From Patescibacteria group bacterium (lineage in GTDB: Bacteria; Patescibacteriota; Minisyncoccia; Phycocordibacterales; Phycocordibacteraceae), in NCBI GenBank assembly GCA_024653825.1, contig JANLHF010000003.1, positions 1-42,916 of the forward strand: 42,916 nt of DNA, read 5' to 3'. Both the position numbers and the translations under genes were made by a program. Below are positions 14,321 through 42,485 of this stretch, piece by piece. Position 1 is the stretch's first letter; each line of letters opens with the position of its first letter. The notes under the pieces were generated by a model, which saw nothing but the letters and a program-made list of their open reading frames with translations, was not told the DNA's origin and did not search any database.

Positions 14321-14879
14321 CCTGCTTGCTATCATAGGATCGAACATAAAAAATAAGTCCGCTCTCCTAGAACTCGGCTGCGGTTCCGGCGCGCTCAGCA
14401 ATGCGATTGCGGAGAAGTTTGATAGTCTGCAGACCATTGTTGCCGTTGATTTTTTTAACGAACCCGAGGCTCTGAATAAAAAAATTCAGTTTATAAAACA
14501 GGACCTTGAAGCCCTGAATCTAGAGGGGCGTTTTGACCTCATTGTCTTAAACCAAGTATTGGAACACATTAAAAATCCGCTCGGTTTGCTCGTAGCGCTT
14601 AAAAAAAATCTCAATCCACACGGGCGCATTCTTATTGTGGTCCCGAATCGCCGTGGTTTCAACAACGAGGCGAGAGTCTACTTGCCGGAACACGGAAGGC
14701 ACTATTTTCTCTGGGATAGGGAAAGTCTGGAATTCAGTCTCAACCGGATAGGCTTTACGTGCCGGTTCTACAATCTGTATACCGCCGCGAGCCACACTCT
14801 TTTTTTGCGCTACTTGCCTACCCTGCTTCGGATACAGAATCCCAATCTGCCCTGCATCGCGATGGTCGACGACATATGA
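14313..14879 (+). CDS. Class I SAM-dependent methyltransferase
   Basis: LLELGCGSG; FDLIVLNQVLEHIKNP; HGRHYFLW. Confidence 0.88.
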   Translation: MDNLLAIIGSNIKNKSALLELGCGSGALSNAIAEKFDSLQTIVAVDFFNEPEALNKKIQFIKQDLEALNLEGRFDLIVLNQVLEHIKNPLGLLVALKKNLNPHGRILIVVPNRRGFNNEARVYLPEHGRHYFLWDRESLEFSLNRIGFTCRFYNLYTAASHTLFLRYLPTLLRIQNPNLPCIAMVDDI

Positions 14880-15970
14880 AGGTACTCTATTTCGCAAACA
14901 TACGTTTCCCGACGGAACGCGCTCACGGGGTGCAAATAGCAAAAATGTGCGAAGCGTTTTCGGATGCAGGTGCGTCGGTGACACTGGTCGTTCCCAATAG
15001 GGCAGTAACAATCGATGGCGATCCGTATGAGTACTACGGCGTCAAAACCAACTTTAACATCATCAAGATTGGGAAACGTGAAGATCCTCAATCCAACCTC
15101 GGGTACTGGATATCCTATGTGAAATTCGCCTTGCGCCTTTCCGCATACTGCTCAAAAAATAAGGCGGACGTGTATTACAGCCGTGATGAATCAATCGTAT
15201 TCATCCTCTCGCTGTTTGGTGTCGGGGTGGTGTGGGAAGCGCATGGGTGGAAGGGCGGTGCACTCGTTGGTTATTTCTTGCGCACCATAAAAAAGATCGT
15301 CGTCATCACAAGTATTGCTAAAAGGCAGTTTGTTGAAGGCGGCGTTTCAGAGCAGAAAATTATCGTTGCGCCGGACGGCGTCGACTCATCGCTCATAGAT
15401 GCGCGCGTAGACAAGATTTTCGCTCGCAAAAAGCTTGGTCTGCCGGCAGAAGGGAAGCTCGCGTTTTATGTTGGCTCGTTGAGCGAATGGAAGGGATTTC
15501 AGACGCTACTACAATGCGCTGACACGCTCGCCAAAAAGCAGATTACCGTGGTTCTTGTCGGCGGCATTGTGGAAAAACTGAAAAAAGAATTTCCCAACGT
15601 CATCTTTCTTGACTTCATTCCGTATAAAGAATTAGCGACCGTGCAGGCGGCTGCCGATGTGTTGGTCATACCGAATTCTGCAAAATCGGTCGTGTCGACG
15701 GACTACACATCGCCCTTGAAACTGTTCGCGCATATGGCTTCTGACCGTCCGATTGTCGCTTCCCGTCTGCCGTCCCTGCGCGAAGTGCTTGATGAAGAGA
15801 CCGCATATTTTTTTGCTCCGGACAATCCGAAGAGTTTGGCGGAAACTATTATATACGCATTGGCCCATACGGAGGAATCAAATGAGAAAGCGCGGAAGGC
15901 TCTCGCGAAAGTGAGGGAGTATACGTGGGACGAACGGGCCCGCAAGATACTGGCATTCATAGGAGAGTGA
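14876..15970 (+). CDS. Glycosyltransferase family 4 (start at ATG 14876, not 14759)
   Basis: MKVLYFANIRFPTERAHGVQ; YVGSLSEWKG; YTSPLKLFAHMAS; ATGA overlap with upstream stop. Confidence 0.9.
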   Translation: MKVLYFANIRFPTERAHGVQIAKMCEAFSDAGASVTLVVPNRAVTIDGDPYEYYGVKTNFNIIKIGKREDPQSNLGYWISYVKFALRLSAYCSKNKADVYYSRDESIVFILSLFGVGVVWEAHGWKGGALVGYFLRTIKKIVVITSIAKRQFVEGGVSEQKIIVAPDGVDSSLIDARVDKIFARKKLGLPAEGKLAFYVGSLSEWKGFQTLLQCADTLAKKQITVVLVGGIVEKLKKEFPNVIFLDFIPYKELATVQAAADVLVIPNSAKSVVSTDYTSPLKLFAHMASDRPIVASRLPSLREVLDEETAYFFAPDNPKSLAETIIYALAHTEESNEKARKALAKVREYTWDERARKILAFIGE

Positions 15971-15978
15971 GTAACGAA

Positions 15979-16007
15979 TTGACAAATTAGAAAATAAAGT
16001 TCAGAAT
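15979..16007 (+). promoter_or_regulatory. sigma70-type promoter for the radical SAM gene
   Basis: TTGACA (15979-84), 17-bp spacer, CAGAAT (16002-07); GAGGAG SD before ATG 16075. Confidence 0.55.
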
Positions 16008-16074
16008 CACATCAGAGCGTTTGAAATATAACGCACACAAGCCCTTTTGATTAATTTCCAGTGAGGAGAATTCG

Positions 16075-17604
16075 ATGGAACCCAAAGTACTTCTTGTGTA
16101 TCCGCCGAATCAACTGATGCCGGTGGAATTGCCCCGGCCAGACGGTTCGCTCGGGCCACTATATCTTGCAGGGGCTCTTGAACGGGCCGGGATTGAGGTA
16201 GATGTTCTCGATGCCTCTGTAGGCACGCCGGACGACAGTCTCGAAACGACCTTCAACAATCGTGTCCTGCAATCAAATGGACTGATCCGCATCGGTATGA
16301 CGGCAGAACGGATAAGCGAAGTCATTTCCAACGGCGGCTATAATGTCGTCGGGGTTAACTCCAACTTCACTCCGCAGACGAAAATGGCTCTTGAAGTTGC
16401 CCGTTTGGCCAAGGGCGTCTCAGAGGACATTCTGGTTGTGGCGGGTGGCGTCAATGCTCGTGCCCTGCCGGGGAGGTTTCTTGCCGGTGGTGTGGACGTC
16501 GTTTGTGCTACCGAAGGGGAGCGAATCATCGTTGAGCTTGCCCGAAGATTGGAAGAGGGGAGAAATCTCGAAGTTTCCGGAACAATCACCACAAAGAGGG
16601 GAATAGTCGTAAGACACCCACTCCGCGCCGGCGATACGGTGACCAATCTTGATGAACTACCTTTCCCTACATGGCAGAAACTCCCGTTCGAACAGTATGA
16701 CGGCATCGCATCGGCCGGACGGGATTCGCTCAAACAAAACGAACGGTCGGCTTCTCTCATGACCTCACGCGGATGTCCCTTCAGGTGCGCCTACTGCCAT
16801 ATCTCTATGGAAAAACAGAATGAAAAAGAGAGTGGCGGCATTGGAGCACTGAGGACCAAGTCTGTCAGTCGCGTGATGGAAGAAGTGAAATGCCTCAAGG
16901 CGCTGGGCGTCAAGAAGATCTACTTTGAGGACGACAGCTTGCTCGCGCACAAGTCCCGAGTGAAGGAGATTTTCACTAAGGTGACGGGTATGGGTATGAA
17001 GATTGCTGACGTCAACGGAGTCAATCTCACGCATTTCCTGAAAGGTGGACCGGGAGGGAAACCGATGATTGACGTGGAGTATCTCGAACTGCTTGCTTCA
17101 GCCGGATTTGATCAAATTGTCTTTCCGGTGGAATCGGCATCCCAACGCATTCTCAACAAGTATGCGACCGGGAAACTCAACCATGCCAAACTTGATGTTG
17201 TGGAGCTGGTAAAGTTGGCGGTGCGGATAGGAATCACCTGCCCCGTTAACATGATGATTGGCTTCCCCGATGAAACAGAGGAAGAAATTCTTTCATCGAT
17301 TGAGCTTGGTCGTCGGCTGGTTGATGCGGGCGCGCCTTACTGCTCGCTCTACGTCCCTATTCCATTCCCGGGAAGCCAGCTTCACGAGATTGCCTTGCAT
17401 GACGGATACCTTGCGTCGAATTTCGACACGGACGCCTTCAACTGGCGAAAACCAACCATGCGAGATACGACCGTCTCTCCGGAAAGGATTGAAGAACTAC
17501 AGCAATGGGGCTGGAGAGATATCAATCCGAAGGAGTACGTCCGTAAGAGACTCGAGATGGACATCGGCAGGCGGTGGAAGAGCGGCGAGCCGGAAGTTGC
17601 CTGA
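16075..17604 (+). CDS. Cobalamin-binding radical SAM enzyme (class B methylase-like)
   Basis: N-terminal B12-binding-type domain (SLGPLYLAGAL..VDVLDA, VAGGVNA); TSRGCPFRCAYC (CxxxCxxC); YFEDD, ESASQRIL, MIGFPDET, PFPGSQL. Confidence 0.9.
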   Translation: MEPKVLLVYPPNQLMPVELPRPDGSLGPLYLAGALERAGIEVDVLDASVGTPDDSLETTFNNRVLQSNGLIRIGMTAERISEVISNGGYNVVGVNSNFTPQTKMALEVARLAKGVSEDILVVAGGVNARALPGRFLAGGVDVVCATEGERIIVELARRLEEGRNLEVSGTITTKRGIVVRHPLRAGDTVTNLDELPFPTWQKLPFEQYDGIASAGRDSLKQNERSASLMTSRGCPFRCAYCHISMEKQNEKESGGIGALRTKSVSRVMEEVKCLKALGVKKIYFEDDSLLAHKSRVKEIFTKVTGMGMKIADVNGVNLTHFLKGGPGGKPMIDVEYLELLASAGFDQIVFPVESASQRILNKYATGKLNHAKLDVVELVKLAVRIGITCPVNMMIGFPDETEEEILSSIELGRRLVDAGAPYCSLYVPIPFPGSQLHEIALHDGYLASNFDTDAFNWRKPTMRDTTVSPERIEELQQWGWRDINPKEYVRKRLEMDIGRRWKSGEPEVA

Positions 17605-17618
17605 AATTGTCTGACATG

Positions 17619-17649
17619 GGGCCGACGCGTGCGTCGGCCTTTTCTTTTT
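17619..17649 (+). terminator. Intrinsic terminator
   Basis: GGCCGACG-CGTG-CGTCGGCC followed by TTTTTCTTTTT. Confidence 0.85.
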
Positions 17650-17685
17650 CTCTTTCTTGTTTTATAATTGTTAACATCGGCCATT

Positions 17686-18843
17686 ATGAAGGTCATCCAC
17701 AGAGTCGGCAGAATAGTGCTTCTTGTACAATGCATAGTGAGAGCGATTTTCTATGGTGCAGCAAATCGCATTCCTTCTAAGATATCTCGAGTCGTAGTCC
17801 ACCCGGACGGTAAATTGGGTGATGTTGTTTGCTGTACGCCGGTACTTGTCGCACTCAGAGCCAATTTACCAGAGGCGCATCTTATCGTAGCGGGAAACTC
17901 CAAACTGCATCGCCCGCTTTTGTCCGACAGCGGCTTAGTCGACGAATATATAGACCTCGGAGAAAAGGGGGCCTTATCACACATTAAGGCCTGCAAGGCC
18001 GACGTAGCCCTCGTGACGGGGGTATCGTTTGATGCCGCGGCATTGTTTTATGTGGCTGGAATTCCCTTGGTAGTAGCCCCAGTTGTTGTGGGGGGTGAAT
18101 CCGAGCAAGAGACGCGTCTGTATAAAATCTTGCAGAGATTTATTAAAACATTTCCGTATAGAATAGGCGCGTATGCTCCCCGCGAACGTTTACGTGTGCT
18201 TGAGCCGCTCAACATTTTTTTTGACGACACGAAGAAACGTCTTGGTTTTTCCGAAGATGCTAAAAGGAACGTTGAGAATGTACTCAATAAAATCGTCGGC
18301 TCTTATACGTATCTTGTCGGCATATCAGCCGGAGTCGGCAACAAAGAAAAATTATGGGATCCAGAAAAGTTTGCCGCAGTGGCGAATTACTTTATACAGA
18401 AGCGTGGGGCCCATATTGTCGTCTTGGGAGGGAAAAGTGATGCACCAGAATCTGCAAAAATGATAGCGGCCATTGAAGACAAATCGAAAATATCTGATGC
18501 CACACTGACATCGATAGACGACCTAAAGGCTATGATAGCGAAACTCGACGTATTTGTGGGTGTGAATACGGGCCCCATATACATCGCTGAAGCATTTGAT
18601 GTTCCGACGGTTGACCTTATCGGTCCGGTTAATCCGTGGGACCAACCGCCACAAGGGAAGATCCATAAAATGGTATTCCCTCCGGGAGAGCCGAAACCCC
18701 TCCTTAATATGCTGAATACACGAAACCATGACGTGAAAGAGGCTGAGCGTATAGCACACTCTACGCGACTTGAAGACGTTATAATGGCAGTAGAAGAAGC
18801 GCTTAAAGAGGTTGATGCACTGAGGTTGGCTAGGAAAAAATAA
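17686..18843 (+). CDS. Glycosyltransferase family 9 (heptosyltransferase-like)
   Basis: KLGDVVCCTPVLVALRANLPEA; KLWDPEKF; FVGVNTGPIYIAEAFDVPTVDLIGP; TATAAT at 17663-68. Confidence 0.85.
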   Translation: MKVIHRVGRIVLLVQCIVRAIFYGAANRIPSKISRVVVHPDGKLGDVVCCTPVLVALRANLPEAHLIVAGNSKLHRPLLSDSGLVDEYIDLGEKGALSHIKACKADVALVTGVSFDAAALFYVAGIPLVVAPVVVGGESEQETRLYKILQRFIKTFPYRIGAYAPRERLRVLEPLNIFFDDTKKRLGFSEDAKRNVENVLNKIVGSYTYLVGISAGVGNKEKLWDPEKFAAVANYFIQKRGAHIVVLGGKSDAPESAKMIAAIEDKSKISDATLTSIDDLKAMIAKLDVFVGVNTGPIYIAEAFDVPTVDLIGPVNPWDQPPQGKIHKMVFPPGEPKPLLNMLNTRNHDVKEAERIAHSTRLEDVIMAVEEALKEVDALRLARKK

Positions 18844-19588
18844 ACTTTTCTATTACATGCGCTACGCCGTCTTTATCTACTGATGGTGCGATATAGTGTG
18901 CCACCGCTTTCAGTTTGTCGTCGGCGTTTTCCATAGCGACTTTAAGACCGCAGGCATTGAGAAACGGCATATCGTTTCTTGAGTCCCCGATGCCTATCAT
19001 TTCCGATGCCTGGACCTTCAGCATTTTGGCAAGTTCTTGTGTGGCGTATTGCTTGGTGGCTTCTGCCTGCGTCACATACACTTCCATTTTGTAGTTTCTG
19101 TCTTTGTCCCAAGAGAAAAATTTATGTGCAGAAACGCCGGGCATATGTTCGAATGTTCGAAGACACTCGTCGGACTCCTCTTTCGAATTAAAATAGGACA
19201 TTTGTACCGCAAGCGGTTTCTCAAATTTCAACACAGAAGGATTTTTATACTCAATACCTCCGTCGTTCACAATGAAAGGAGTTTTGTAATATTTGATTAT
19301 TTTCATCAAACTATCCATATCTCCTCCAGCAATCGGTTTCTCCCAAAGGATATCTCCTGATTGTGGATCGACTATCTGCGAGCCTCCGTTTATGATGCAA
19401 GGGCTTGTCAGCTCCAATGTTTTGAAGGTCTCGGTAAGCCAATTTAGTGGCCGGCCAGAGACAATAGATACGAAGACTTCTTTTTTCGCTTTTTTTATCG
19501 AGTCCGTTACTTTTTCGGACGGAACGGTGTAAGGCCCGACAGGGACGATGGTCCCATCGACGTCTAAAAGGAGGGATTTATATTTCAT
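18830..19588 (-). CDS. Cof-type HAD-IIB sugar-phosphate phosphatase
   Basis: LDVDGT, VSGRP, IINGGS, IGDSRND, VAMENA; likely start ATG 19588. Confidence 0.9.
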   Translation of the reverse strand: MKYKSLLLDVDGTIVPVGPYTVPSEKVTDSIKKAKKEVFVSIVSGRPLNWLTETFKTLELTSPCIINGGSQIVDPQSGDILWEKPIAGGDMDSLMKIIKYYKTPFIVNDGGIEYKNPSVLKFEKPLAVQMSYFNSKEESDECLRTFEHMPGVSAHKFFSWDKDRNYKMEVYVTQAEATKQYATQELAKMLKVQASEMIGIGDSRNDMPFLNACGLKVAMENADDKLKAVAHYIAPSVDKDGVAHVIEKFIFS

Positions 19589-19611
19589 AGGCACTGTTGT
19601 AGTATACATTC

Positions 19612-20577
19612 ATGAAGTCGTCCGTGGCCATGTCTTTTAAGCGGAAAAGGGTTCTGCTAGTTGGGGATGCAATACTTGATATGTATATCTACTGTAATGC
19701 CGTTGGTCAAGCGTTGTACGCGGACGTACCCGAGGTTGAAGAAATAAAAACCAAGGTTTCCTTTGGTGGCAACGGTTTGGTGGCGACAAACATTTTGGAG
19801 CTTGGGGGGAATCTCACGTTTGTTTCTGTGGTCGGAGACGATGAAGACGCAAGACAGTACGATTCCTTCGTCCATCCGAGAATGAAGAAGATTTTCTTTG
19901 TAGATCCTACGCGTAAAACGACGGTCAAGAGAAGGTGGTATGTAGGCGAGAAAGCATTGCTTCAGGTAAACACCGTCGATAACCACAGCCTCAGTGTCCT
20001 GCTTGAAAAAAAGCTGATAGGCCGTATCGAGAAAGAAGCAAGAAAAGCCGATGTGATTGTTGTGATGGATCCACAGCACGGGCTACTGACCAAGAGTGTC
20101 ATCAATCGGTTAAAAAAAATAAGCAGGGAACTCAAGAAGCCGTTGTACGTTGATGGACAGATATCGCACAGAAAAAGCAATCACTATCTCTATCGAGGTG
20201 TTGACTGCATCCTTTTGAACGAAAAAGAGGCGAGGGCCGTCTACCCCGCATTTGATATAAAAACCCCTCAACAAACACTCCTCACTATATTGAAAAAACT
20301 GGAATTAAAGAACGTTGTTGTAAAGCTCGGAGATAAAGGGTCTATAGCGCTCTGCAACGGTCGTTACATAAAGACCTCCCCGTATAAAGTAAAGGCAGTG
20401 GATACCTGCGGGGCCGGTGACGCTTTCCTCGCAGCCTTCAGTCTTGGAGATATGAATACGCCTGAAGAATCTCTCGCGATAGCCAATATGTGGGGAGCGC
20501 TTTCCACGAAAATTCATGGTACTATTCCGCCCGGAAGGAAAGAATTGGTTAGAATCATAAAGGAGAATACACGATGA
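19612..20577 (+). CDS. PfkB-family kinase, RfaE domain I (heptose-7-phosphate kinase)-like, diverged
   Basis: LLVGDAILDMY, TTVKRRW..LLQVN, LNEKEA, VKLGDKG, DTCGAGDAF. Confidence 0.8.
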   Translation: MKSSVAMSFKRKRVLLVGDAILDMYIYCNAVGQALYADVPEVEEIKTKVSFGGNGLVATNILELGGNLTFVSVVGDDEDARQYDSFVHPRMKKIFFVDPTRKTTVKRRWYVGEKALLQVNTVDNHSLSVLLEKKLIGRIEKEARKADVIVVMDPQHGLLTKSVINRLKKISRELKKPLYVDGQISHRKSNHYLYRGVDCILLNEKEARAVYPAFDIKTPQQTLLTILKKLELKNVVVKLGDKGSIALCNGRYIKTSPYKVKAVDTCGAGDAFLAAFSLGDMNTPEESLAIANMWGALSTKIHGTIPPGRKELVRIIKENTR

Positions 20578-21290
20578 GCTCTCAGTTACATATCAAGTTG
20601 TTTGCAGACGGCGCGGACCTTGCCGGCATCAAGGAAATGGCAGCGAACCCTCTTGTAAAGGGTTTTACCACCAACCCGACGCTGATGCGTAAGGCAGGCG
20701 TGACGGATTACAAAACGTTCGCGCAAGAGGCACTCAGTGTCATTGGCGATCGGCCACTATCGCTCGAGGTATTTGCTGACGAGTTCGCCGAGATGGAAAA
20801 ACAAGCCCTCGAAATCGCTTCGTGGGGCAAGAACGTGAATGTCAAAATCCCGGTGACGAACACGAGGGGCGAGTTTTCCGGGCCACTCGTGGAGCGTCTG
20901 TCGAAGGCAGGAGTTCAGGTCAATGTAACGGCGTTGATGACGCTTGAGCAGGTTTCATCCGTAACGGATAAGCTTGCCCCCGAAACACCGGCGATTATTT
21001 CGGTATTCGCCGGTCGCATTGCCGATACGGGACGCGACCCGGTGCCGATGATGGCCGAGGCGGTTCGCGTCATGAAGACGAAGCCGAAGGCGGAACTGAT
21101 CTGGGCGAGTCCACGGGAATTACTCAACGTGTTTCAAGCGGACTCGGTCGGGTGTCATATCATCACGGCGACGAACGACATTCTCAAGAAGATGGCGCTA
21201 GTTGGCAAAGATCTAGACGCCTATTCGCTCGAGACGGTCAAGATGTTCTACGACGATGCGCAAGCCGCGGGCTACAACGTCTCAACCTAA
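20574..21290 (+). CDS. tal: Transaldolase (short TalC-type)
   Basis: LFADGAD, GFTTNPTL, SLEV, VKIP (Schiff-base Lys), NVTA, SVFAGRIAD; Glu and Phe at the TAL/FSA-discriminating positions. Confidence 0.9.
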   Translation: MSSQLHIKLFADGADLAGIKEMAANPLVKGFTTNPTLMRKAGVTDYKTFAQEALSVIGDRPLSLEVFADEFAEMEKQALEIASWGKNVNVKIPVTNTRGEFSGPLVERLSKAGVQVNVTALMTLEQVSSVTDKLAPETPAIISVFAGRIADTGRDPVPMMAEAVRVMKTKPKAELIWASPRELLNVFQADSVGCHIITATNDILKKMALVGKDLDAYSLETVKMFYDDAQAAGYNVST

Positions 21291-21377: not shown

Positions 21378-21863
21378 ATGAATACTCGCGCAAAACTCGT
21401 TTCTTTGGCCGAACTCCCCGCGATAGTCGAGAAACTAAAAAAACAAGGCAAAAAAATTGTCACGACCAATGGAGCTTTTGACATTTTGCATGTTGGCCAC
21501 AAGAGGGCGCTTGAAGAGAGTAAGTCGCTCGGGGATGTTCTCATTGTTGGCGTAAACTCAGATTCATCTGTTAAACAATATAAATCAGACTTACGGCCGA
21601 TCATTCCTGAGGACGATCGGGCTGAGGTGCTCGCCGGACTTGCTTGTGTTGATTTCGTGACCATTTTTACCGAAACTGACCCAAAGAATTTTCTAGATCT
21701 GGTAAAACCTGACATTCACACTAAGTCCGGAGATTATAAGGAGGAAGAGCTTAAAGAAACATCAACCGTTCTACAAAACGGCGGAGAGGTGGTGATTATT
21801 CCCTTCATAGAGGGTAAATCAACGACGAATATTATCGATCGAATCCTTAAGGTTTACGGATAG
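21378..21863 (+). CDS. rfaE2: RfaE domain II / HldC-like heptose-1-phosphate nucleotidyltransferase
   Basis: TNGAFDILHVGH (HxGH), VGVNSDSSV, RPII..DRAEVL, VDFVTIF, KSGDY, STTNII. Confidence 0.88.
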   Translation: MNTRAKLVSLAELPAIVEKLKKQGKKIVTTNGAFDILHVGHKRALEESKSLGDVLIVGVNSDSSVKQYKSDLRPIIPEDDRAEVLAGLACVDFVTIFTETDPKNFLDLVKPDIHTKSGDYKEEELKETSTVLQNGGEVVIIPFIEGKSTTNIIDRILKVYG

Positions 21864-23013
21864 GCTCGACAGTATAAATGAAAAGGGGAGTAGTGCCGGT
21901 ATTTTTCACCTTCACCTCTGTGTGAGGGATAACCAGAAACTCGTTCATCCCGTCTTGGGCGATCTTGTTCCCATTAATATCTCCTTCTCCGCTCCAGACG
22001 ATTCCGCCCTGGGGTTCTTTTTTTGGAGCCAGCGTAAGGGTCTTGCCGGGGAATATTTTCCACTCCTCTCCATAGAACATATCGAAGAATATCTGGTGGC
22101 GCTCCCCCCAGTCTCCTGAATCAATACGTTTGGGCGTATGGAAGTATTTTTTCGCGAGTTCCGGATCGCTTGTTGTTTCCCAATCCAACACCTTTTCGAT
22201 AAAATCATCCTCGCTTGGAAGTCCGCGGAGTACGTGTTCTTCGTATTTCTTTTCTCGTTCTTTTTCGGAAAGTCGTTCTCCTAGTCGCCACGAACCGTTA
22301 TTGTAATCGTCTTGTGGCAACTGGACCTCAAACGTAAGGTAGGGGCCGGGAGCATGAAGCACTCCCTCTGGAACGGTCCAACCAGTGTTGGGCAATATCG
22401 GAAATTCGTTCAGAAGCTCGTACATCGAGTCGTCTTTCCCAAATGAGTGAAGCCTTTGTTTTATATCCTCTTTTGTAACACCCTCCTTAAGACCGATTCT
22501 CGTTATTACTGACAACTTTTTATTGTAAGGAGGGATATCAGTAGGCGGAAAAAAATATGCCTCTGATTTCCCCGGTTTATTGACCGAACCGTGTACAATA
22601 TTTCCCCCGTGTACATGAACCGGTATCGGCGGGATTTCCGTAGTACCAAAACTGGTGGCAACCTCTTTCCCGCCGATGTCGAGAATCTTGGTGAGAGGCC
22701 AGCGTGCGGCATACTCTCCAAACAGAAGCGATTCGGCAACGTGTCTCAAATCGGCCAGTGGGACTTCCTCTTCAAAAATTTTTATCTTTGTGAGTCCCTC
22801 CCCAGTTACTCGGACGGCGTTTTCTGCTTCTACCGTTGATAGTATCCAAAGTTCTACAGGCACGTACCCGCGCGAATCGGCTTTGTTAGGGGAGCTATTT
22901 GGCGCGATGATGTCATTTCCGAAATAAGATTCACGACAGACAATCGCACTTTTTGTTACAAGCACTCCATTTTTTTCATCCAACCCTTTTTTTATTTTTT
23001 CGACCGAGGACAT
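21847..23013 (-). CDS. Divergent type I phosphomannose-isomerase-like cupin (start ~23013)
   Basis: PIPVHVH, GKSEAYFF, GVLHAPG, TFEVQLPQD correspond to PMI-I metal-binding segments (QVHP, KPE, VHA, EIQQxSD); track N-terminal extension overlaps the opposite gene. Confidence 0.65.
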   Translation of the reverse strand: MSSVEKIKKGLDEKNGVLVTKSAIVCRESYFGNDIIAPNSSPNKADSRGYVPVELWILSTVEAENAVRVTGEGLTKIKIFEEEVPLADLRHVAESLLFGEYAARWPLTKILDIGGKEVATSFGTTEIPPIPVHVHGGNIVHGSVNKPGKSEAYFFPPTDIPPYNKKLSVITRIGLKEGVTKEDIKQRLHSFGKDDSMYELLNEFPILPNTGWTVPEGVLHAPGPYLTFEVQLPQDDYNNGSWRLGERLSEKEREKKYEEHVLRGLPSEDDFIEKVLDWETTSDPELAKKYFHTPKRIDSGDWGERHQIFFDMFYGEEWKIFPGKTLTLAPKKEPQGGIVWSGEGDINGNKIAQDGMNEFLVIPHTEVKVKNTGTTPLFIYTVEPIRKP

Positions 23014-23040
23014 GAGTTTTGATGGTATCATACAAAAAAT

Positions 23041-23901
23041 ATGTTGGTATCTCCATGCCCTTCCTGCGGCAAAACAGAGAACAAAGAATGGGGCAGCAAG
23101 AATGGCTATACGCTGCTTCGATGCACTTCCTGTGGTCTCATTTTCGTCTTTCCACTGCCGAGCGAAGCGCCGGCTATCTATGATAAGACCTATTTTGCCA
23201 GCGGTGACGGGTATGGTTATGTGGATTATGATCGCGACAAGGAACCGATGCGCCGTGCATTTGAACTGTATCTGGAGCACATAGAAGAGGTGCTTGGGAG
23301 GAAAGGGAACCTTCTTGATGTCGGTGCAGCCACTGGGTACTTCATGAACATAGCAAAGGGACACGGTTGGAAAGTGGAAGGAGTCGAGATATCAGACTAC
23401 GCTGCGTCGCTCGGTCGGGCGAAGGGATTGTCTATACACACGGGTACTCTCGAAAATACCTTTCTTACAGAAGAGAGTTTCGATGCAATAACCTTCTTTG
23501 ACATACTAGAACACGTAAGAGACCCCAAGTCGGTTTTGCTAGAAGCGAATCGATTTTTAAAGAAGGGGGGCATCGTTGTCGTGACGACTCCCGATAGTGG
23601 CAGTCTATGGGCTCGAGTGCTCGGGCAACAGTGGCATCTCGTGGTGCCGCCAGAGCACCTGATTCTATTCAATCGGAAGAATTTTGCAGACTTACTTAGA
23701 CGCACAGGTTTCACTCCGTCTCTTGTCACGACCATAGGCAAGCATTTCACTGTGCCGTACATATTTCAGACACTTTATCACTGGCAGGGTCTTTCCTTGT
23801 GGAATATACTAGCCAAAGCGACAAACAGAGGAATTTTATCAAAACTGAAAATACCGATTAATCTTCACGACACTTTTTTTATGATAGCTAAGAAGTCATG
23901 A
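23041..23901 (+). CDS. Class I SAM methyltransferase with N-terminal Zn-ribbon
   Basis: CPSC...CTSC; LLDVGAATG; FDAITFFDILEHVRDP; PPEHLILF. Confidence 0.9.
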   Translation: MLVSPCPSCGKTENKEWGSKNGYTLLRCTSCGLIFVFPLPSEAPAIYDKTYFASGDGYGYVDYDRDKEPMRRAFELYLEHIEEVLGRKGNLLDVGAATGYFMNIAKGHGWKVEGVEISDYAASLGRAKGLSIHTGTLENTFLTEESFDAITFFDILEHVRDPKSVLLEANRFLKKGGIVVVTTPDSGSLWARVLGQQWHLVVPPEHLILFNRKNFADLLRRTGFTPSLVTTIGKHFTVPYIFQTLYHWQGLSLWNILAKATNRGILSKLKIPINLHDTFFMIAKKS

Positions 23902-38447: not shown

Positions 38448-40229
38448 TTATTTCTTCACGACCAAATAATCGTCCAAGACCAGATAATCCATCTCGGTAG
38501 CCAAGAATGTCCTCAGTGTGTCTTCGGGAGTTTCCACAATCGGCTCGCCACCGAGATTGAAAGAAGTGTTTAGAATCAAGGGGACCTGCGTCAAATCATA
38601 AAAACTCTTAATGAGGTCGTAATAACGACCGTTAGCAGCTTGGGTAACTGTTTGGATTCGGCACGTCCCATCAACGTGAGTAACTGATGGAATGGTCCCC
38701 CGTTTATCTTCCTTTACGTTTGTGGCTAGCACCATGAAAGGACTTGTTTCATCGCAGTCGAAAAAGTCACCGACCCTTTCCTCCAGCACCGATGCGGCAA
38801 ATGGCCGCCAGGGCTCGCGATGCTTAACCCGCAGGTTCAGGACATCTTTCATATCGGGTCGCCGGGCATCGCATAGGATAGAACGATGTCCGAGTGCGCG
38901 CGGTCCGTATTCAGATCCCCCATAGAACCAACCAATGATATTACCATCGGCTATCAGACGGGCCGTCTCGGCGGCGATGTCCGCCGGTTTTGTATACGAG
39001 ATGCGTGCCCCGTCTTTTTTCAGTGCGGCTACGACCTCCTTTTCGGAATAAGCGCGACCAAGAGAGGCGCTTTCCATTTCGTAGAATCGCGGAAGGCCGG
39101 CGATCATGTGGTGACCGTAAAACGCAAGTCCCAACGGAATACCTGTGTCGGAGGAGGCAGGCTGAATGAAGATATTTTTAAAACCAACCTCACTTAAGAA
39201 ATTCATATTGGCGTCAATATTGAGCCCACACCCGCCGGCGACACACAGATTTTGTGACCGAGTTATCTTTTTTAATTGCATCCCAAGTAGTACGGCCACC
39301 CGCTCAAACACCTTTTGAACAGCATAGGCGACCGATGAATAATATTTGTCGGGCAGTTTCTCATCTGTACGTCGAGGATTCTTCAACTTGAGCTCTGGGA
39401 AAATAATAGTGGATTCAAAAGCACCATCTTCGGTAAGATGCCTTTGCGCGAAACGAATTATTGGTCGCAGCAAGCGAATAAGGCCGTGTCGTAGTCGGGG
39501 CAGGGCATTCGCGCGAGTTAGTGGCTGCTGCTGCGCATCCTTTCCCGGGAACGAGATGTTACTGTTGCAGACCACATGGCCGTTATGTTCGACGCACCAT
39601 TCATCATAGGGATGTTCCTTTAAGATTTGGTCGCTTCCGTATGGAGCTAGGCCCATCATCTTCCCCTCATTCAACGAGCCCAAATTGAGGTACTCGCAAA
39701 TGAAGGAGTATAGTTTCCCAATCCCGAATGTGTAGGGATAAAATCCATTTTCTCGCACATGGAGATTCTTTTTAATCAGTACCAGCTCTTTGTCTTGTCC
39801 GGAATACAAGCTCTCTGTTTCCGTCGCGTAGACACCTAAATGAGTGGCAAATCTTTCGCCGGCGCCATCGTAGATGAGGACGGCAGCTTCGGTAAAGGGC
39901 GAACAGAAGAAAGCCGACGCGGCGTGGGCATCGTGGTGGTTCACAATATGGATCTGCGCTTTGGAAAATATACCGTCGGTTTCCCGTGTGAAAGTTTCTG
40001 CCATCTTCGTTTGAGACGGCAAGCCGATCTGGTCAATCAATACCATATCTATGTCGGCGGGCTTTAAATCGAAATAATCCAGACAATAGGTAATGGATAG
40101 ACGTGGAAACATCTTTGAGGAATGCTTCACACGGTTGAGCCGCTCTTCAGCAATAGCTATAACGCGCTGATTGGAGATCAGTGCCGCTCCCGTATCATGT
40201 CCGGTTATTTTAACGCCGAGAATATTCAT
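38448..40229 (-). CDS. O-carbamoyltransferase, NodU/CmcH/TobZ family
   Basis: GHDTGAAL, EERLNRVK, HHDAHAASAF, DGAGE, GKMMGLAPYG, AGGCGLN, EYGPRALGHRSIL, KHREPWRPFA, LNTSFN. Confidence 0.95.
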   Translation of the reverse strand: MNILGVKITGHDTGAALISNQRVIAIAEERLNRVKHSSKMFPRLSITYCLDYFDLKPADIDMVLIDQIGLPSQTKMAETFTRETDGIFSKAQIHIVNHHDAHAASAFFCSPFTEAAVLIYDGAGERFATHLGVYATETESLYSGQDKELVLIKKNLHVRENGFYPYTFGIGKLYSFICEYLNLGSLNEGKMMGLAPYGSDQILKEHPYDEWCVEHNGHVVCNSNISFPGKDAQQQPLTRANALPRLRHGLIRLLRPIIRFAQRHLTEDGAFESTIIFPELKLKNPRRTDEKLPDKYYSSVAYAVQKVFERVAVLLGMQLKKITRSQNLCVAGGCGLNIDANMNFLSEVGFKNIFIQPASSDTGIPLGLAFYGHHMIAGLPRFYEMESASLGRAYSEKEVVAALKKDGARISYTKPADIAAETARLIADGNIIGWFYGGSEYGPRALGHRSILCDARRPDMKDVLNLRVKHREPWRPFAASVLEERVGDFFDCDETSPFMVLATNVKEDKRGTIPSVTHVDGTCRIQTVTQAANGRYYDLIKSFYDLTQVPLILNTSFNLGGEPIVETPEDTLRTFLATEMDYLVLDDYLVVKK

Positions 40230-40263
40230 TGAGTAAATCCTTTATACCAGGTATTGTGAGCCT

Positions 40264-41229
40264 ATGAAAGAGCAAAGTCCGGAACACAGGGCTAAACGGA
40301 CGCTTGTTGCCGCCCAAGACGCCCTCCGCCATCTTACAAGCTCTCTTGCAGGTGTTCGTCGAGCGGTGAAGCTTATTGAAGGGCGAAAAGGGGATATTAT
40401 TGTGACTGGTATCGGCAAGTCCGGGTTCATAGGACAAAAGTGTGCCGCCTCCCTCACTTCGCTTGGTGAGAAGGCTTTTTTCATTCACCCAACAGAAGCG
40501 TTGCACGGCGACTTCGGTATGTTGTCAAAGGGCGATGTTCTCATTGCGCTTTCATTCTCGGGAGAAACTAAGGAGGTCGTGAGCATCGCCAAGTACGCCA
40601 AGAAAAATTTTGCGGTTCCCGTCATTGCACTTTGCAAGAGCTCCAATTCGTCGCTCGGTAAGATTGCAGATTCCTGTGTACCGATAGTTATCAGATCCGA
40701 GGGAAGCCCGAACGGTATCGCACCAATGGCTTCAACGACCGCGATGTTGGTTGTCTGCGACATGATTGCGGCGTCAGTAATGAGTATCAACTTTAAGGAC
40801 GAGCATTTTGCCGCGTATCATCCCGGCGGAGCATTGGGACTACGTTTAAAAAGGGTGGAGGAATTGATGAAGAAAGGTATCGCCATACCGAAAGTAAAAG
40901 AGACCGACACCTTCTTAAGAGCGGTCAAAGAGATAAATGATAAGAGAATGGGGATTACGGCAGTTATTGGAGCGCACGGGAAGATAACAGGCGCGATAAC
41001 CGACGGCGATATCAGACGCTTTGTTCTGAGGAACAAACTCACCTCGTCAGCAACGGCGAAGAATACGATGACCCTCAAGCCGAAATGCGTGCAGGCGACT
41101 GACTCGCTCGAGAAGGCACTTGACGCTATGGAGAGCTATAAGATAACCAGTGCGTTTGTACTGGACGCACGCGGAAAACTCGTAGGAGTTATTCATATTC
41201 ACGATATTATTGAGCACACGATTGTTTAA
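40264..41229 (+). CDS. kpsF: KpsF/GutQ-family arabinose-5-phosphate isomerase (SIS + 2 CBS)
   Basis: TGIGKSGFIG, HPTEALHGDFG, SFSGET, PMASTT, YHPGGALG, ITDGDIRR. Confidence 0.92.
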   Translation: MKEQSPEHRAKRTLVAAQDALRHLTSSLAGVRRAVKLIEGRKGDIIVTGIGKSGFIGQKCAASLTSLGEKAFFIHPTEALHGDFGMLSKGDVLIALSFSGETKEVVSIAKYAKKNFAVPVIALCKSSNSSLGKIADSCVPIVIRSEGSPNGIAPMASTTAMLVVCDMIAASVMSINFKDEHFAAYHPGGALGLRLKRVEELMKKGIAIPKVKETDTFLRAVKEINDKRMGITAVIGAHGKITGAITDGDIRRFVLRNKLTSSATAKNTMTLKPKCVQATDSLEKALDAMESYKITSAFVLDARGKLVGVIHIHDIIEHTIV

Positions 41230-42485
41230 TGCGTTTCACTTTTGAAAGGGTACGTGACAAGATAATACGACAGGAGACCGCTGAAAACCCGCACTGTTAT
41301 TTGTGCCACGACCAAACCCATAAGTCCAAACGAAGGAATGAGTACGAAGTAGAGAATTATCGTGGTGATTGGAATAACGGTTCGGCTTAGATATAATTCA
41401 CGTTTCTTTCTGTGGGCAACTAGATGTGAGTCGAGCACGGAGCCTACGATGCCGAACAGAGTGAGAGAATACACTTGTGAATAAAATACCGACTCAATAT
41501 ATTGGGGGTAAAAGAACTTGTAAAAGTAGGGAATGAGGGGGATATAGATACCGACGAGGACGGCGGCGTAGGCCGCAAGCATCCATATCCTGCGCGGGGC
41601 GGATTTCTGCAAATCTGTAAATGACCGACCGCTTAACTTCGGCAGCATAAGTGCATTCAATATTTTTTTTCCGCTCTGCAGTTGTTCAACGGGAGCAATA
41701 GCAAATGCGTAGACAGCCAGAGGGACTGCGCCGAGGTAGTGGAAGACAAGTATCTTATCAAGATTGCCGGCAACCTGTCCTATAACTCCCATCACACCCA
41801 AATGTCCGGCATAGGATACAAGCCCGGGTTCTTCTTTTTCATTTTCTCCTCGGTAGGCAGATCGCGTCGCATAATAAAGGAATAATGAAACGAGCGCCGT
41901 GGAAACGAAATAGACAGCAATAAGAATCAACAGGCTCTGGGTCAGGAAGATGGTGATGATAAGAGCGACGGCGGGTACGACGTTTCGAATGACGCCATAC
42001 AGGGTGCTTCTCTTGAAATCTTTTTTACCGAGCAGGTATGCGCCATACAGACCGGCACTTGCGGCCACCGGCGTTAAAATGCCCGCCAACAGAAACGAAA
42101 GAGAAAGCAAGGCGTTGCCGTTTACGTAGTAGTACACACTCAAAACGAGCCCTGCCAAGATTGTACCGATGCTCCATTTCAAGTTGGCTCGGAATCCCTG
42201 TCGCAGAGAATTGCCGAAGCCACGCGCGACTGCTTGCGTGACTGCCGTCCCCATATCTATGAAAGAGAAGACCCCTATCAACGCCACCGTGGAGAGGACG
42301 AATTTATAGGTGCCGAAAGACTCCTTGGGGAAGAAATTAGCGAAGGCGAGCGATACGAGGAATCCCAAAGCCATATTGATGCCTTGGCCAAACGACATCC
42401 ACGAGCCGCCCTTGGCGAGGTACACCATGTCGGCCTTAAAAAACGCTTCGCTTCGGCGGAGGATGGAGACGGCGCGGTCTTTCAT
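41226..42485 (-). CDS. wzx: Wzx-type oligosaccharide flippase
   Basis: About 12 TMs; PKESFGTYKFVLS, DKILVFHYLGAVPLAVYAFA, LIPSFGLMG. Confidence 0.85.
   Translation of the reverse strand: MKDRAVSILRRSEAFFKADMVYLAKGGSWMSFGQGINMALGFLVSLAFANFFPKESFGTYKFVLSTVALIGVFSFIDMGTAVTQAVARGFGNSLRQGFRANLKWSIGTILAGLVLSVYYYVNGNALLSLSFLLAGILTPVAASAGLYGAYLLGKKDFKRSTLYGVIRNVVPAVALIITIFLTQSLLILIAVYFVSTALVSLFLYYATRSAYRGENEKEEPGLVSYAGHLGVMGVIGQVAGNLDKILVFHYLGAVPLAVYAFAIAPVEQLQSGKKILNALMLPKLSGRSFTDLQKSAPRRIWMLAAYAAVLVGIYIPLIPYFYKFFYPQYIESVFYSQVYSLTLFGIVGSVLDSHLVAHRKKRELYLSRTVIPITTIILYFVLIPSFGLMGLVVAQITVRVFSGLLSYYLVTYPFKSETH

What the first reader, a model, noticed from the sequence alone, without database searches (positions are those of the whole stretch)
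16075..17649. Self-contained cobalamin-dependent radical SAM cassette inside the glycan locus
Seen: its own TTGACA-17-CAGAAT promoter, a GAGGAG SD (rare in this window) and a strong terminator; it sits directly before the GT9/heptose module. Established: class B rSAM enzymes methylate unactivated carbons, including sugars (GenK, GenD1), and CPR are not known to make B12. Inference: an acquired gene that C-methylates a surface sugar using scavenged cobalamin.
Basis: partly seen in the sequence, partly recalled or inferred. Interest (0 to 1): 0.65.

Follow-up and report, generated by a model that had tools for sequence, protein, structure and literature searches.

The report
Heptose-pathway B12-type radical SAM enzyme
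This gene encodes a vitamin-B12-type radical SAM enzyme from an unstudied family that, in many ultra-small bacteria and some archaea, always sits among genes that make an activated seven-carbon surface sugar; it most likely edits (probably methylates) that sugar and is an old partner of the pathway, not a recent foreign insert.

Summary
ORF 16075-17604 (509 aa) has a B12-binding Rossmann domain, a radical SAM core with CxxxCxxC, a near-consensus promoter, one of only two strong ribosome-binding sites in the window, and a hairpin terminator. The promoter, ribosome-binding site and terminator position recur in relatives, so this is a conserved single-gene transcription unit.

The protein belongs to a tight orthologous group (50-80% identity) found across Patescibacteria and also in SAR11, Woesearchaeota, Dehalococcoidales and Elusimicrobiota. 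It is almost always embedded in a nucleotide-heptose module of transaldolase, isomerase, kinase, phosphatase, nucleotidyltransferase and a glycosyltransferase.

In this window's clade every sugar-activation gene has been swapped for a non-orthologous ADP-heptose-type analogue. Even the transaldolase is xenologous, nested among high-GC bacterial sequences. The radical SAM gene is the one constant and the most conserved gene of the module. Its raised GC is family-wide (40 of 41 loci). It is therefore not a recently acquired cassette.

Near-identical transaldolase-heptose modules exist without it, so it is a tailoring enzyme. C-methylation is the most likely chemistry but is untested. The gene belongs to no curated family.

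The parts
15979..16007 (+). Sigma-70-type promoter TTGACA-17-CAGAAT of the radical SAM gene
   Evidence: It is the best promoter-like site in 10-26 kb. The -35 box and A-rich spacer are conserved in L049, L050, L051 and L006. The word is unique in the window.
16063..16068 (+). Shine-Dalgarno GAGGAG, 6 nt before the ATG
   Evidence: Read from the sequence. Only this gene and the transaldolase have a strong SD among 38 window genes. An AGGAG-type SD is conserved in relatives.
16075..17604 (+). Class B-type radical SAM enzyme, 509 aa (P0001)
   Evidence: Supported by Pfam and NCBIfam. The AlphaFold2 model has pLDDT 90.1. Foldseek finds TsrM, MgmA, AprD4 and TokK.
16150..16539 (+). N-terminal cobalamin-binding-type Rossmann domain (residues 26-155). 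It has the S96 'SxL-like' and G124-G125 'GG' motifs and no His of DxHxxG.
   Evidence: PF02310 scores 55.8 bits. The domain is as conserved as the catalytic core, 0.73 against 0.74. Invariant residues are listed.
16762..17307 (+). Radical SAM core (residues 230-411). The [4Fe-4S] motif C234-x3-C238-x2-C241 lies at 16774-16797, and an invariant E285-D286-D287 motif follows.
   Evidence: PF04055 scores 62.8 bits. Invariant columns are listed.
17618..17659 (+). Intrinsic terminator: a 10-bp GC-rich hairpin (17618-17641) followed by a U-rich tract
   Evidence: Found by the scan and the fold. A hairpin occurs at the same place in L049, L050, L051, L006 and L008. It is not a repeat element.
14759..15970 (+). 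Upstream GT4 glycosyltransferase. The true start is probably downstream of the listed GTG.
   Evidence: Pfam annotation. A GT4-family gene occupies the same upstream slot in relatives, but it is only 23-24% identical to the window's.
17686..18843 (+). GT9 (heptosyltransferase-family) gene. It occupies the slot that a GT2 holds in most other loci.
   Evidence: PF01075. ATG at 17686 and TATAAT at 17663-17668 are read.
18830..19609 (-). HAD-IIB (Cof-type) sugar phosphatase
   Evidence: Family hits. Syntenic in L049-L051, 59-63% identical.
19612..20577 (+). PfkB-family kinase, RfaE domain I-like
   Evidence: TIGR02198 scores 152 bits, below its cut-off of 345. Syntenic in relatives.
20574..21290 (+). 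Transaldolase (TIGR02134 type), xenologous to the transaldolases of most other modules
   Evidence: It scores 351 bits against a cut-off of 282. Its origin is shown by the identity comparison and the tree.
21378..21863 (+). Heptose-1-phosphate adenylyltransferase (RfaE domain II type)
   Evidence: TIGR02199 scores 184.2 bits against a cut-off of 181.5.
21847..23364 (-). 505-aa ORF with no family hit. It sits where relatives have the SIS-type isomerase (GmhA).
Evidence: No family hit. Position comparison.

Best explanation
P0001 is a cobalamin-type (class B) radical SAM tailoring enzyme of a nucleotide-heptose surface-glycan pathway. The sugar could instead be an LmbR-style octose.

Proposed mechanism (inferred, not shown): the [4Fe-4S] cluster bound by C234/C238/C241 reductively cleaves SAM to a 5'-deoxyadenosyl radical. 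That radical abstracts a hydrogen from an unactivated carbon of the sugar. The substrate radical is then quenched by methyl transfer from methylcobalamin held in the N-terminal Rossmann domain. A second SAM re-methylates cob(I)alamin. The product would be a C-methylated heptose, for example CH2OH to CH(OH)CH3 at C7, as GenK and Fom3 do on their substrates. The adjacent glycosyltransferase (GT9 here, GT2 elsewhere) would then pass this sugar into the envelope glycan.

The gene is transcribed on its own from a strong conserved promoter and ends at its own terminator. It is an ancient, conserved partner of the pathway, not a recent acquisition.
For: Shown here:
- Domain architecture and motif.
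- A confident model (pLDDT 90) whose best structural matches are the class B enzymes TsrM (E 6e-23), MgmA/QCMT, AprD4 and TokK.
- The N-terminal domain is as conserved as the catalytic core.
- Orthologues at 50-80% identity occur in more than 100 clusters.
- Of 46 homologue loci, 32 carry a transaldolase, 30 a GHMP kinase, 30 an NTP-transferase, 29 a SIS isomerase, 25 a GmhB-type HAD and 37 a GT2. The typical gene order is NTPtr>rSAM>GT2.
- The link persists at 42-44% identity.
- The relatives L049-L051 and L057, L058, L107 share the window's exact gene order.
- It is the most conserved gene of the module, and its divergence co-varies with its neighbours.
- It stays orthologous while the kinase, nucleotidyltransferase, phosphatase, glycosyltransferase and transaldolase are all replaced in the window's clade.
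- Transaldolase-heptose modules with 70-79% identical transaldolases exist without it in high-GC bacteria, one of them labelled Burkholderiales. It is therefore a tailoring step, not a core step.

From the literature: C-methyltransferases are by far the most represented class B group, including enzymes that act on carbohydrates (PMC12931638). The closest curated family is a methyltransferase (NF038361, 151 bits).
Against: - No biochemical datum exists for any member, and no paper on the family was found.
- The score to NF038361 is far below its cut-off (151 against 575), and that family methylates phosphorus, not carbon.
- The profile search of solved structures ranks the non-methylating AprD4 and OxsB first.
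- Cobalamin binding is inferred from sequence only.
- The loci already contain many ordinary SAM methyltransferases.
- The enzyme tolerated a switch from a GDP-alpha-type to an ADP-beta-type pathway with only two coincident substitutions, K458R and R476Q. This fits poorly with tight recognition of the nucleotide. It leaves open that the substrate is a sugar phosphate, a lipid-linked sugar or the finished glycan.
Confidence: 0.5

Rival explanations
1. The enzyme belongs to the same pathway and is a tailoring enzyme, but its chemistry is not methylation. It would use the 5'-deoxyadenosyl radical, with cobalamin as electron sink or unused, for another reaction on the heptose. Candidates are 1,2-diol dehydration/deoxygenation of the exocyclic C6-C7 glycol (AprD4-like, finished by a partner reductase), epimerisation, or ring contraction/rearrangement (OxsB- or HpnJ-like).
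For: - AprD4 and OxsB are the best profile hits among solved structures, and AprD4 gives the highest TM-scores (0.64-0.73).
- HpnJ is the third-best NCBIfam hit.
- A GFO/IDH/MocA-DAO oxidoreductase or SDR genes lie next to the rSAM-GT2 pair in many loci and could finish a redox-neutral radical step.
- Non-methylating class B reactions are documented (PMC12931638).
Against: - Such reactions are sporadic exceptions in the class.
- All hits to these families are far below their cut-offs (AprD4 44.5 against 500; HpnJ 78.9 against 577.6).
- The N-terminal domain is as conserved as the core, unlike what would be expected if the cofactor were dispensable.
- The window's clade lacks the GFO-DAO partner yet keeps the enzyme.
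Confidence: 0.25
2. The enzyme does not act on the soluble nucleotide sugar. Its substrate is a polyprenyl-phosphate-linked sugar, the lipid carrier, or the assembled glycan or glycoprotein. The reaction is methylation or another radical modification.
For: - The commonest downstream neighbour is a DPM1/ArnC-like GT2 that makes polyprenyl-phospho-sugars, and GT-C-like membrane proteins recur.
- A 42%-identical relative sits beside DprE1/DprE2/UbiA-like genes of a polyprenyl-phospho-sugar pathway.
- Only two residues changed when the pathway's nucleotide and anomer type changed.
- Several class B enzymes act on lipids (HpnR, HpnJ and the ladderane-type family appear among the hits).
Against: - The protein has no predicted membrane segment. 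The model is a compact soluble three-domain fold.
- In the window's clade the adjacent transferase is a GT9, which uses a nucleotide-heptose directly.
- Gene order NTPtr>rSAM>GT2 places it between activation and transfer, though this is weak evidence.
Confidence: 0.15
3. One reading: a stand-alone cassette recently acquired by this genome from elsewhere and dropped into an existing glycan locus.
For: - It has its own promoter, SD and terminator.
- Its GC is 53.4% against 43-47% in the genes just downstream.
- The family is scattered over distant phyla at about 50% identity.
- The rSAM and the neighbouring ADP-heptose genes do have different histories.
Against: - The order rSAM-GT9-HADIIB-PfkB-TAL-CTPtr, with a GT4-family gene in the upstream slot, is the same in six other contigs.
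- The promoter and terminator are conserved with it.
- The rSAM is 75-78% identical where the conserved module neighbours are 59-84%.
- GC excess is seen in 40 of 41 loci and follows host GC from 0.28 to 0.64.
- The rSAM tree nests the window within Patescibacteria, whereas the transaldolase nests among high-GC bacteria.
Confidence: 0.05

Closest known systems
Sden_1168 / PhpK-type cobalamin-dependent radical SAM P-methyltransferases (NCBIfam NF038361, TIGR04479)
   Same: This is the best curated sequence match, aligned over the full length (residues 3-489; 151 bits, E 3e-44). The B12 domain plus radical SAM architecture is the same.
   Different: The score is far below the family cut-off (575). 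No PEP-mutase or other phosphonate genes were annotated in the loci whose gene calls came with Pfam labels, and none was found among the window ORFs scanned. The context is heptose or glycan, so the substrate and probably the atom attacked differ.
GenK / GenD1 (gentamicin) and Fom3 (fosfomycin) class B C-methyltransferases
   Same: This is the functional analogy. They methylate unactivated sp3 carbons of carbohydrates, or of a nucleotide-linked alcohol in Fom3, typically turning CH2OH into CH(OH)CH3. This rests on the literature (PMC12931638; PMC4340712 listed) and on general knowledge.
   Different: They are secondary-metabolite enzymes of actinomycetes. No sequence-level membership could be shown, because none of them appears among the NCBIfam or PDB hits. 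Here the context is primary envelope glycan synthesis in reduced genomes.
TsrM, TokK, MgmA/QCMT (solved class B methylases)
   Same: They share the three-domain fold. Foldseek gives E 6e-23 to 3e-16 and TM 0.57-0.65.
   Different: Identity is 16-20%. Their substrates are tryptophan, a carbapenem and a protein glutamine. TsrM does not use radical chemistry.
AprD4 (radical SAM 1,2-diol dehydratase acting on an aminoglycoside sugar)
   Same: It is the top profile hit in the PDB (E 2e-11) and has the highest TM-score. It acts on a sugar.
   Different: The sequence matches cover only the radical SAM half: residues 228-467 in the PDB profile search and 166-472 against the NCBIfam AprD4 model. The NF033070 score is 44.5 against a cut-off of 500. 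From general knowledge, AprD4 is not a methylase and works without cobalamin.
GDP-/ADP-D-glycero-D-manno-heptose pathways (GmhA, HddA or HldA, GmhB, HddC or HldC) and the lincosamide octose pathway (LmbR, LmbN, LmbP, LmbK, LmbO)
   Same: The partner genes of the rSAM are exactly these enzyme types. A dedicated transaldolase is a feature of the Lmb pathway (PMC4351081).
   Different: None of the described pathways contains a radical SAM enzyme.

Membership tests
Radical SAM superfamily | CxxxCxxC cluster motif and a PF04055 match above the gathering score | tested here: met
   The motif is C234-x3-C238-x2-C241. PF04055 scores 62.8 bits against 29.5. C238 and C241 are invariant, and C234 is present in at least 90% of 68 homologues.
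Class B (cobalamin-binding) radical SAM enzymes | An N-terminal B12-binding Rossmann domain fused to the radical SAM barrel | tested here: met
   PF02310 scores 55.8 bits against 32.1. The predicted fold superposes on TsrM, TokK and MgmA over about 490-530 columns. The domain is conserved as strongly as the core.
Class B (cobalamin-binding) radical SAM enzymes | Actual binding and use of a cobamide | not testable with these tools
   There are only sequence hints: the S96 and G124-G125 motifs are present and the His of DxHxxG is absent, as in base-off class B enzymes. Homologous AprD4 shows that the fold alone does not prove it.
NF038361 Sden_1168 family P-methyltransferase | A whole-protein score of at least 575 bits to the equivalog model | tested here: not met
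   The score is 151.4 bits.
TIGR04479 PhpK family P-methyltransferase | A score of at least 600 bits | tested here: not met
   The score is 65.4 bits, covering the core only.
NF033070 AprD4 family diol dehydratase | A score of at least 500 bits | tested here: not met
   The score is 44.5 bits.
TIGR03471 HpnJ / TIGR04367 HpnR hopanoid enzymes | A score of at least 577.6 (HpnJ) or 650 (HpnR) bits, and a hopanoid gene context | tested here: not met
   The scores are 78.9 and 32.6 bits. No hopanoid genes lie nearby.
GenK/GenD1-type sugar C-methyltransferases | Sequence membership in their clade, and formation of SAH plus 5'-dA with a methylated sugar product | not tested
   No model or solved structure of these enzymes is in the libraries searched.
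Heptose-linked class B rSAM orthologous group (defined here and by earlier scan notes) | At least about 42% identity over the full length, and a neighbourhood containing transaldolase plus heptose-activation genes | tested here: met
   The window falls in a clade with SH-aLRT 100 inside a 48-row group that also has support 100.

The most novel reading that the evidence does not exclude
This orthologous group would be the first cobalamin-dependent radical SAM enzyme of primary cell-envelope glycan synthesis. It would carry out a carbon-level edit of an activated heptose or octose: a C-methyl branch, or chain extension to a deoxy-octose. That edit would define the surface sugar of many Patescibacteria, some DPANN archaea and some SAR11. 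Because it is the one gene kept while every sugar-activation enzyme around it was exchanged, the edit itself would be the selected trait. These auxotrophic, B12-non-producing cells would then depend on community-supplied cobamide to build their surface.
Probability: 0.35. Interest if true: 0.75.

Novelty: new variant of a known kind. Interest (0 to 1): 0.55.

Why it matters
Class B radical SAM enzymes are known almost only from antibiotic, cofactor, lipid and peptide pathways. A clade wired into envelope heptose synthesis would be a new biological role and probably a new sugar.

The group is widespread in organisms with tiny genomes that are thought unable to make B12. If the enzyme really needs a cobamide, then surface-glycan structure would be tied to a cofactor obtained from hosts or neighbours. 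That would be a concrete and testable dependency.

The finding that this gene stays constant while the activation enzymes are swapped gives a clear experimental entry point: one enzyme and a short list of candidate substrates.

This result is not unique to this window. Earlier notes of this scan reached the same general reading for homologues in other genomes. The added value here is threefold: the demonstration of module swapping, the existence of rSAM-less sister modules, and the conserved private promoter and terminator.

Tried and rejected
- Whole-genome search for B12 uptake or use genes and other B12 enzymes: the tool was shut. Earlier notes on this genome held nothing on B12.
- The TP_methylase ORF at 1990-2709 was checked as a possible corrin gene. 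It is RsmI, the 16S rRNA methyltransferase.
- A cobalamin riboswitch or any Rfam RNA in the leader or the window: none. The leader is only about 60 nt.
- Public sequencing runs to look for transcription: none listed.
- The terminator or promoter as copies of the hairpin-repeat families noted in this genome: both are unique in the window.
- P-methylation of a phosphonate, suggested by the best NCBIfam hit: rejected, because no phosphonate gene was annotated in any locus examined.
- GC excess as a sign of horizontal transfer: rejected, because it is family-wide.
- Clade-specific residues as a read-out of nucleotide recognition: only K458R and R476Q coincide with the pathway switch. That switch is a single evolutionary event, so there is no statistical weight.
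- Literature searches for the family (heptose, Patescibacteria, CPR and Parcubacteria, each combined with radical SAM or cobalamin) found nothing relevant.
Full report
**1. The observation**

The window carries an ATG-to-TGA ORF at 16075-17604 on the + strand, 509 aa. Pfam finds a B12-binding domain at residues 26-155 (55.8 bits) and a Radical_SAM domain at residues 230-411 (62.8 bits). Both are above their gathering scores. The cluster motif is SRGCPFRCAYCH (C234, C238, C241).

- TTGACA-17-CAGAAT at 15979-16007. It is the best-scoring promoter-like site between 10 and 26 kb, although such sites as a class are no more frequent than in shuffled sequence.
- GAGGAG at 16063-16068.
- A 10-bp GC-rich hairpin at 17618-17641 followed by a U-rich run (-17.5 kcal/mol, z = -3.1).

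I scanned the 25 nt upstream of 38 window genes. Only this gene and the transaldolase gene have a 5-6-nt Shine-Dalgarno match, so the ribosome-binding site really is rare here. Neither the promoter word nor the hairpin is a dispersed repeat of the window.

**2. The signals are conserved, so they are not chance**

In five related loci the proteins are 62-78% identical to P0001, and in the five-locus alignment the upstream intergenic DNA outside these signals shows little conservation. The upstream region nevertheless keeps TTGACAAA(T/A)T, an A-rich 17-18-nt spacer, an nAnAAT-type -10 box and an AGGAG-type ribosome-binding site in four of them (L049, L050, L051, L006). A strong hairpin follows the stop codon in all five, L008 included. 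The gene is therefore a conserved monocistronic unit inside the glycan locus. No Rfam family, and in particular no cobalamin riboswitch, is present in the short leader or anywhere else in the window.

**3. What the protein is**

NCBIfam places it in no curated family. [quoted passage not shown] After it come MJ_1487-type, HpnJ, RiPP C-methyltransferase, PhpK and others, all far below their cut-offs.

By sequence, the nearest solved structures are TsrM (single sequence) and AprD4, OxsB and TokK (family profile).

An AlphaFold2 model built on 68 homologues is confident (pLDDT 90.1, pTM 0.89). Foldseek returns the class B enzymes TsrM (E 6e-23), MgmA/QCMT, AprD4 and TokK, with TM-scores of 0.57-0.66 normalised to the query, ahead of MiaB/RimO and the rest of the superfamily.

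The N-terminal domain is as conserved across the family as the catalytic core (0.73 against 0.74 mean majority fraction). It keeps an SxL-like serine (S96) and the GG motif (G124-G125) but has no histidine in the DxHxxG position. This fits the base-off, protein-ligand-free binding mode described for class B enzymes (PMC12931638). Cobamide binding itself remains an inference.

**4. Family and distribution**

The word-indexed search found more than 1000 relatives. The top 120 are 56-80% identical full-length proteins, and where named they are almost all from Patescibacteria/Parcubacteria lineages. The exhaustive search shows a compact orthologous group. About twenty 50%-identity clusters score above roughly 290 bits, and below that there is a drop to about 30% identity for the general class B background.

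In species-representative genomes the gene occurs in many Patescibacteria. At 49-52% identity it also occurs in Pelagibacteraceae and other Alphaproteobacteria, Woesearchaeota, a Methanosarcinales MAG, Dehalococcoidales and Elusimicrobiota.

**5. Neighbourhood**

I called ORFs in 48 loci plus the window and clustered them by BLASTP. Of 46 loci with the gene, many of them truncated contigs:

| Neighbour gene | Loci carrying it |
|---|---|
| GT2 (DPM1/ArnC-like) | 37 |
| TAL_FSA transaldolase | 32 |
| GHMP kinase | 30 |
| NTP-transferase | 30 |
| SIS isomerase | 29 |
| SDR | 28 |
| GmhB-type HAD phosphatase | 25 |

The commonest order is NTP-transferase > rSAM > GT2 > GFO/IDH/MocA-DAO oxidoreductase > kinase/phosphatase/isomerase/transaldolase.

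[quoted passage not shown] With its dedicated transaldolase it also matches the set that builds the GDP-octose of lincosamides: LmbR, LmbN, LmbP, LmbK and LmbO (PMC4351081).

The linkage holds for more distant relatives:
- A 44%-identical protein is followed by an NTP-transferase and a GHMP kinase.
- A 42%-identical one lies in HAD > TAL > rSAM > NTP-transferase, with the rSAM start codon immediately following the TAL stop.
- Another 42%-identical one sits with DprE1/DprE2/UbiA-like genes, that is, a polyprenyl-phospho-sugar pathway.

**6. 'Acquired' is not supported; if anything the reverse holds**

- **Synteny.** The closest relatives (L049, L050, L051; 75-78% identity) and three metagenome contigs (L057, L058, L107; 76%) share the window's order rSAM > GT9 > HAD-IIB(<) > PfkB > TAL > adenylyltransferase, with a GT4-family gene in the upstream slot. 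The conserved module neighbours (GT9, HAD-IIB, PfkB, TAL, adenylyltransferase) are 59-84% identical; the upstream GT4 gene is only about 23% identical.
- **Co-variation.** Pairwise distances of the rSAM correlate with those of TAL, kinase, nucleotidyltransferase, phosphatase, isomerase and GT2 (r 0.28-0.54, Mantel p = 0.001). The rSAM is the slowest-evolving member, with mean distance 0.43-0.44 against 0.57-0.68.
- **GC content.** The gene is more GC-rich than the other ORFs of its locus in 40 of 41 loci, by 6.3 points on average. It still tracks host composition, from 0.28 in SAR11 to 0.64 in Dehalococcoidales. The excess seen here (53.4% against 43-47% just downstream) is a family trait, not a transfer scar.
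- **Phylogeny.** In the rSAM tree the window falls in an 8-member clade (SH-aLRT 100) nested within Patescibacteria whose modules are of the GHMP/NTP-transferase/GT2 type. In that clade the kinase is PfkB, the nucleotidyltransferase is RfaE-domain-II type (184.2 bits against a cut-off of 181.5), the phosphatase is HAD-IIB and the adjacent transferase is GT9.
- **The transaldolase is not orthologous either.** It is 26-33% identical to the transaldolases of most other Patescibacterial modules but 70-82% identical to transaldolases on metagenome contigs, most of them high-GC. In a tree it nests inside that radiation (clade support 97).

The radical SAM gene is therefore the only orthologous constant across module types. 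Either it was retained while the activation genes were replaced, or the two parts were joined at the base of this clade. A species tree is needed to decide between these. A recent insertion into this genome is excluded.

**7. It is a tailoring step**

This was a reciprocal test. Twenty-two loci were found through the window's transaldolase and have at least 5.5 kb of upstream flank. Only the three low-GC syntenic ones carry the rSAM. The other 19 (GC 0.44-0.69) have SIS > GmhB > TAL with SDRs and a fused adenylyltransferase-PfkB protein, and no rSAM within the flank held on either side, at most 10 kb. One of these proteins is recorded as 'transaldolase [Burkholderiales bacterium]'. The sugar-nucleotide can thus be made without the enzyme, so the enzyme adds a modification.

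**8. Mechanism**

The steps that are shown are the architecture, the fold and the pathway membership. The chemistry is inferred. C-methylation of an unactivated sugar carbon is the most likely reaction for three reasons:
- It is by far the commonest reaction of the class, including on carbohydrates.
- The nearest curated family is a methylase.
- The putative cobalamin domain is under strong constraint.

I put this at about 0.5.

A non-methylating radical reaction on the sugar (AprD4-like deoxygenation of the exocyclic diol, epimerisation or rearrangement) gets about 0.25. It is supported by the AprD4 and OxsB profile hits and by the frequent oxidoreductase partners.

Action on a lipid-linked sugar or the finished glycan gets about 0.15. 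The GT2 and GT-C neighbours and the DprE-type context of a distant relative point that way.

Where in the pathway the enzyme acts stays open. Only K458R and R476Q coincide with the change from a GDP-alpha-type to an ADP-beta-type pathway, while 171 positions are identical in both groups. That argues against tight reading of the nucleotide, but it is a single evolutionary event.

**9. Cobalamin supply**

The claim that the organism scavenges B12 could not be tested. Whole-genome search was shut, earlier notes on this genome mention no B12 genes, and no sequencing run could be listed. The one tetrapyrrole-methylase-like ORF in the window is RsmI. That Patescibacteria lack cobamide synthesis is general knowledge and was not verified here.

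**10. Novelty**

I found no paper on this family or on any radical SAM enzyme in a heptose pathway. Earlier notes of this scan reached the same general reading for homologues in other genomes. I treated them as leads and re-derived the linkage independently.

New here are:
- the conserved private promoter and terminator;
- the demonstration that the rSAM is the constant element while all activation genes, including the transaldolase, were exchanged;
- the existence of rSAM-less sister modules.

I rate it a new variant of a known kind: a class B radical SAM enzyme in an undescribed role. Interest is moderate to good (0.55).

Noticed in passing
window 20574-21290: The transaldolase is xenologous. 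It is 70-82% identical to transaldolases on metagenome contigs, most of them high-GC (one labelled Burkholderiales), and nests inside them in a tree. It is only 26-33% identical to the transaldolases of most other Patescibacterial heptose modules. It has the highest GC3 in the window (0.674) and the only other strong Shine-Dalgarno (AAGGAG).
   Followed up: partly
L059-L136 (e.g. L070 7781-15254): A widespread module in bacteria from soil and other metagenomes, GC mostly 0.5-0.69: SDR > GmhA > GmhB > transaldolase > SDR ... fused adenylyltransferase-PfkB (domains in reverse order to HldE) > GFO/IDH/MocA. It has no radical SAM gene.
   Followed up: partly
window 17663-17688: The GT9 gene probably starts at ATG 17686, not at the TTG at 17668 listed by the ORF finder. 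A perfect TATAAT at 17663-17668 lies only 17 nt upstream, which suggests a very short or absent leader without a Shine-Dalgarno.
   Followed up: no
window 21847-23364 (-): A 505-aa ORF with no Pfam or NCBIfam hit occupies the position where relatives (L049-L051) have the SIS-type heptose isomerase. Only L009 shares it.
   Followed up: no
window 38448-42485: The far end of the locus holds a carbamoyltransferase (38448-40229, -), a KpsF/GutQ-type arabinose-5-phosphate isomerase that passes its NCBIfam cut-off (40264-41229), and a Wzx-like flippase (41226-42485, -). An arabinose-5-phosphate supply next to a dedicated transaldolase would fit an eight-carbon sugar.
   Followed up: no
L054 (relative P0124, 42% identity): A more distant member of the rSAM group sits with FAD_binding_4, short-chain dehydrogenase and UbiA genes (DprE1/DprE2/phosphoribosyltransferase-like), a sulfatase-family protein and a GINT1_N protein. 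This is a polyprenyl-phospho-sugar context rather than a heptose one.
   Followed up: no
L047 3277-16146: A Bacteroidetes MAG contig carries six adjacent class B radical SAM paralogues, about 26% identical to P0001.
   Followed up: no
L027, L028, L031: SAR11/Pelagibacteraceae MAGs (GC 0.22-0.24) carry part or all of the module GT2 > rSAM > TAL > GHMP kinase > NTP-transferase ... SIS > HAD: complete in L027, without the HAD in L028, and only GT2 > rSAM > TAL on the short L031 contig. A B12-type enzyme in this lineage is unexpected.
   Followed up: no
rSAM residues 213-216, 458, 476: Most family members have a conserved S-P-H motif at 213-215 and R476. The window's clade has (S/A)-A-G-R and Q476. 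The sister L005 already has the AGGR form but keeps R476.
   Followed up: partly
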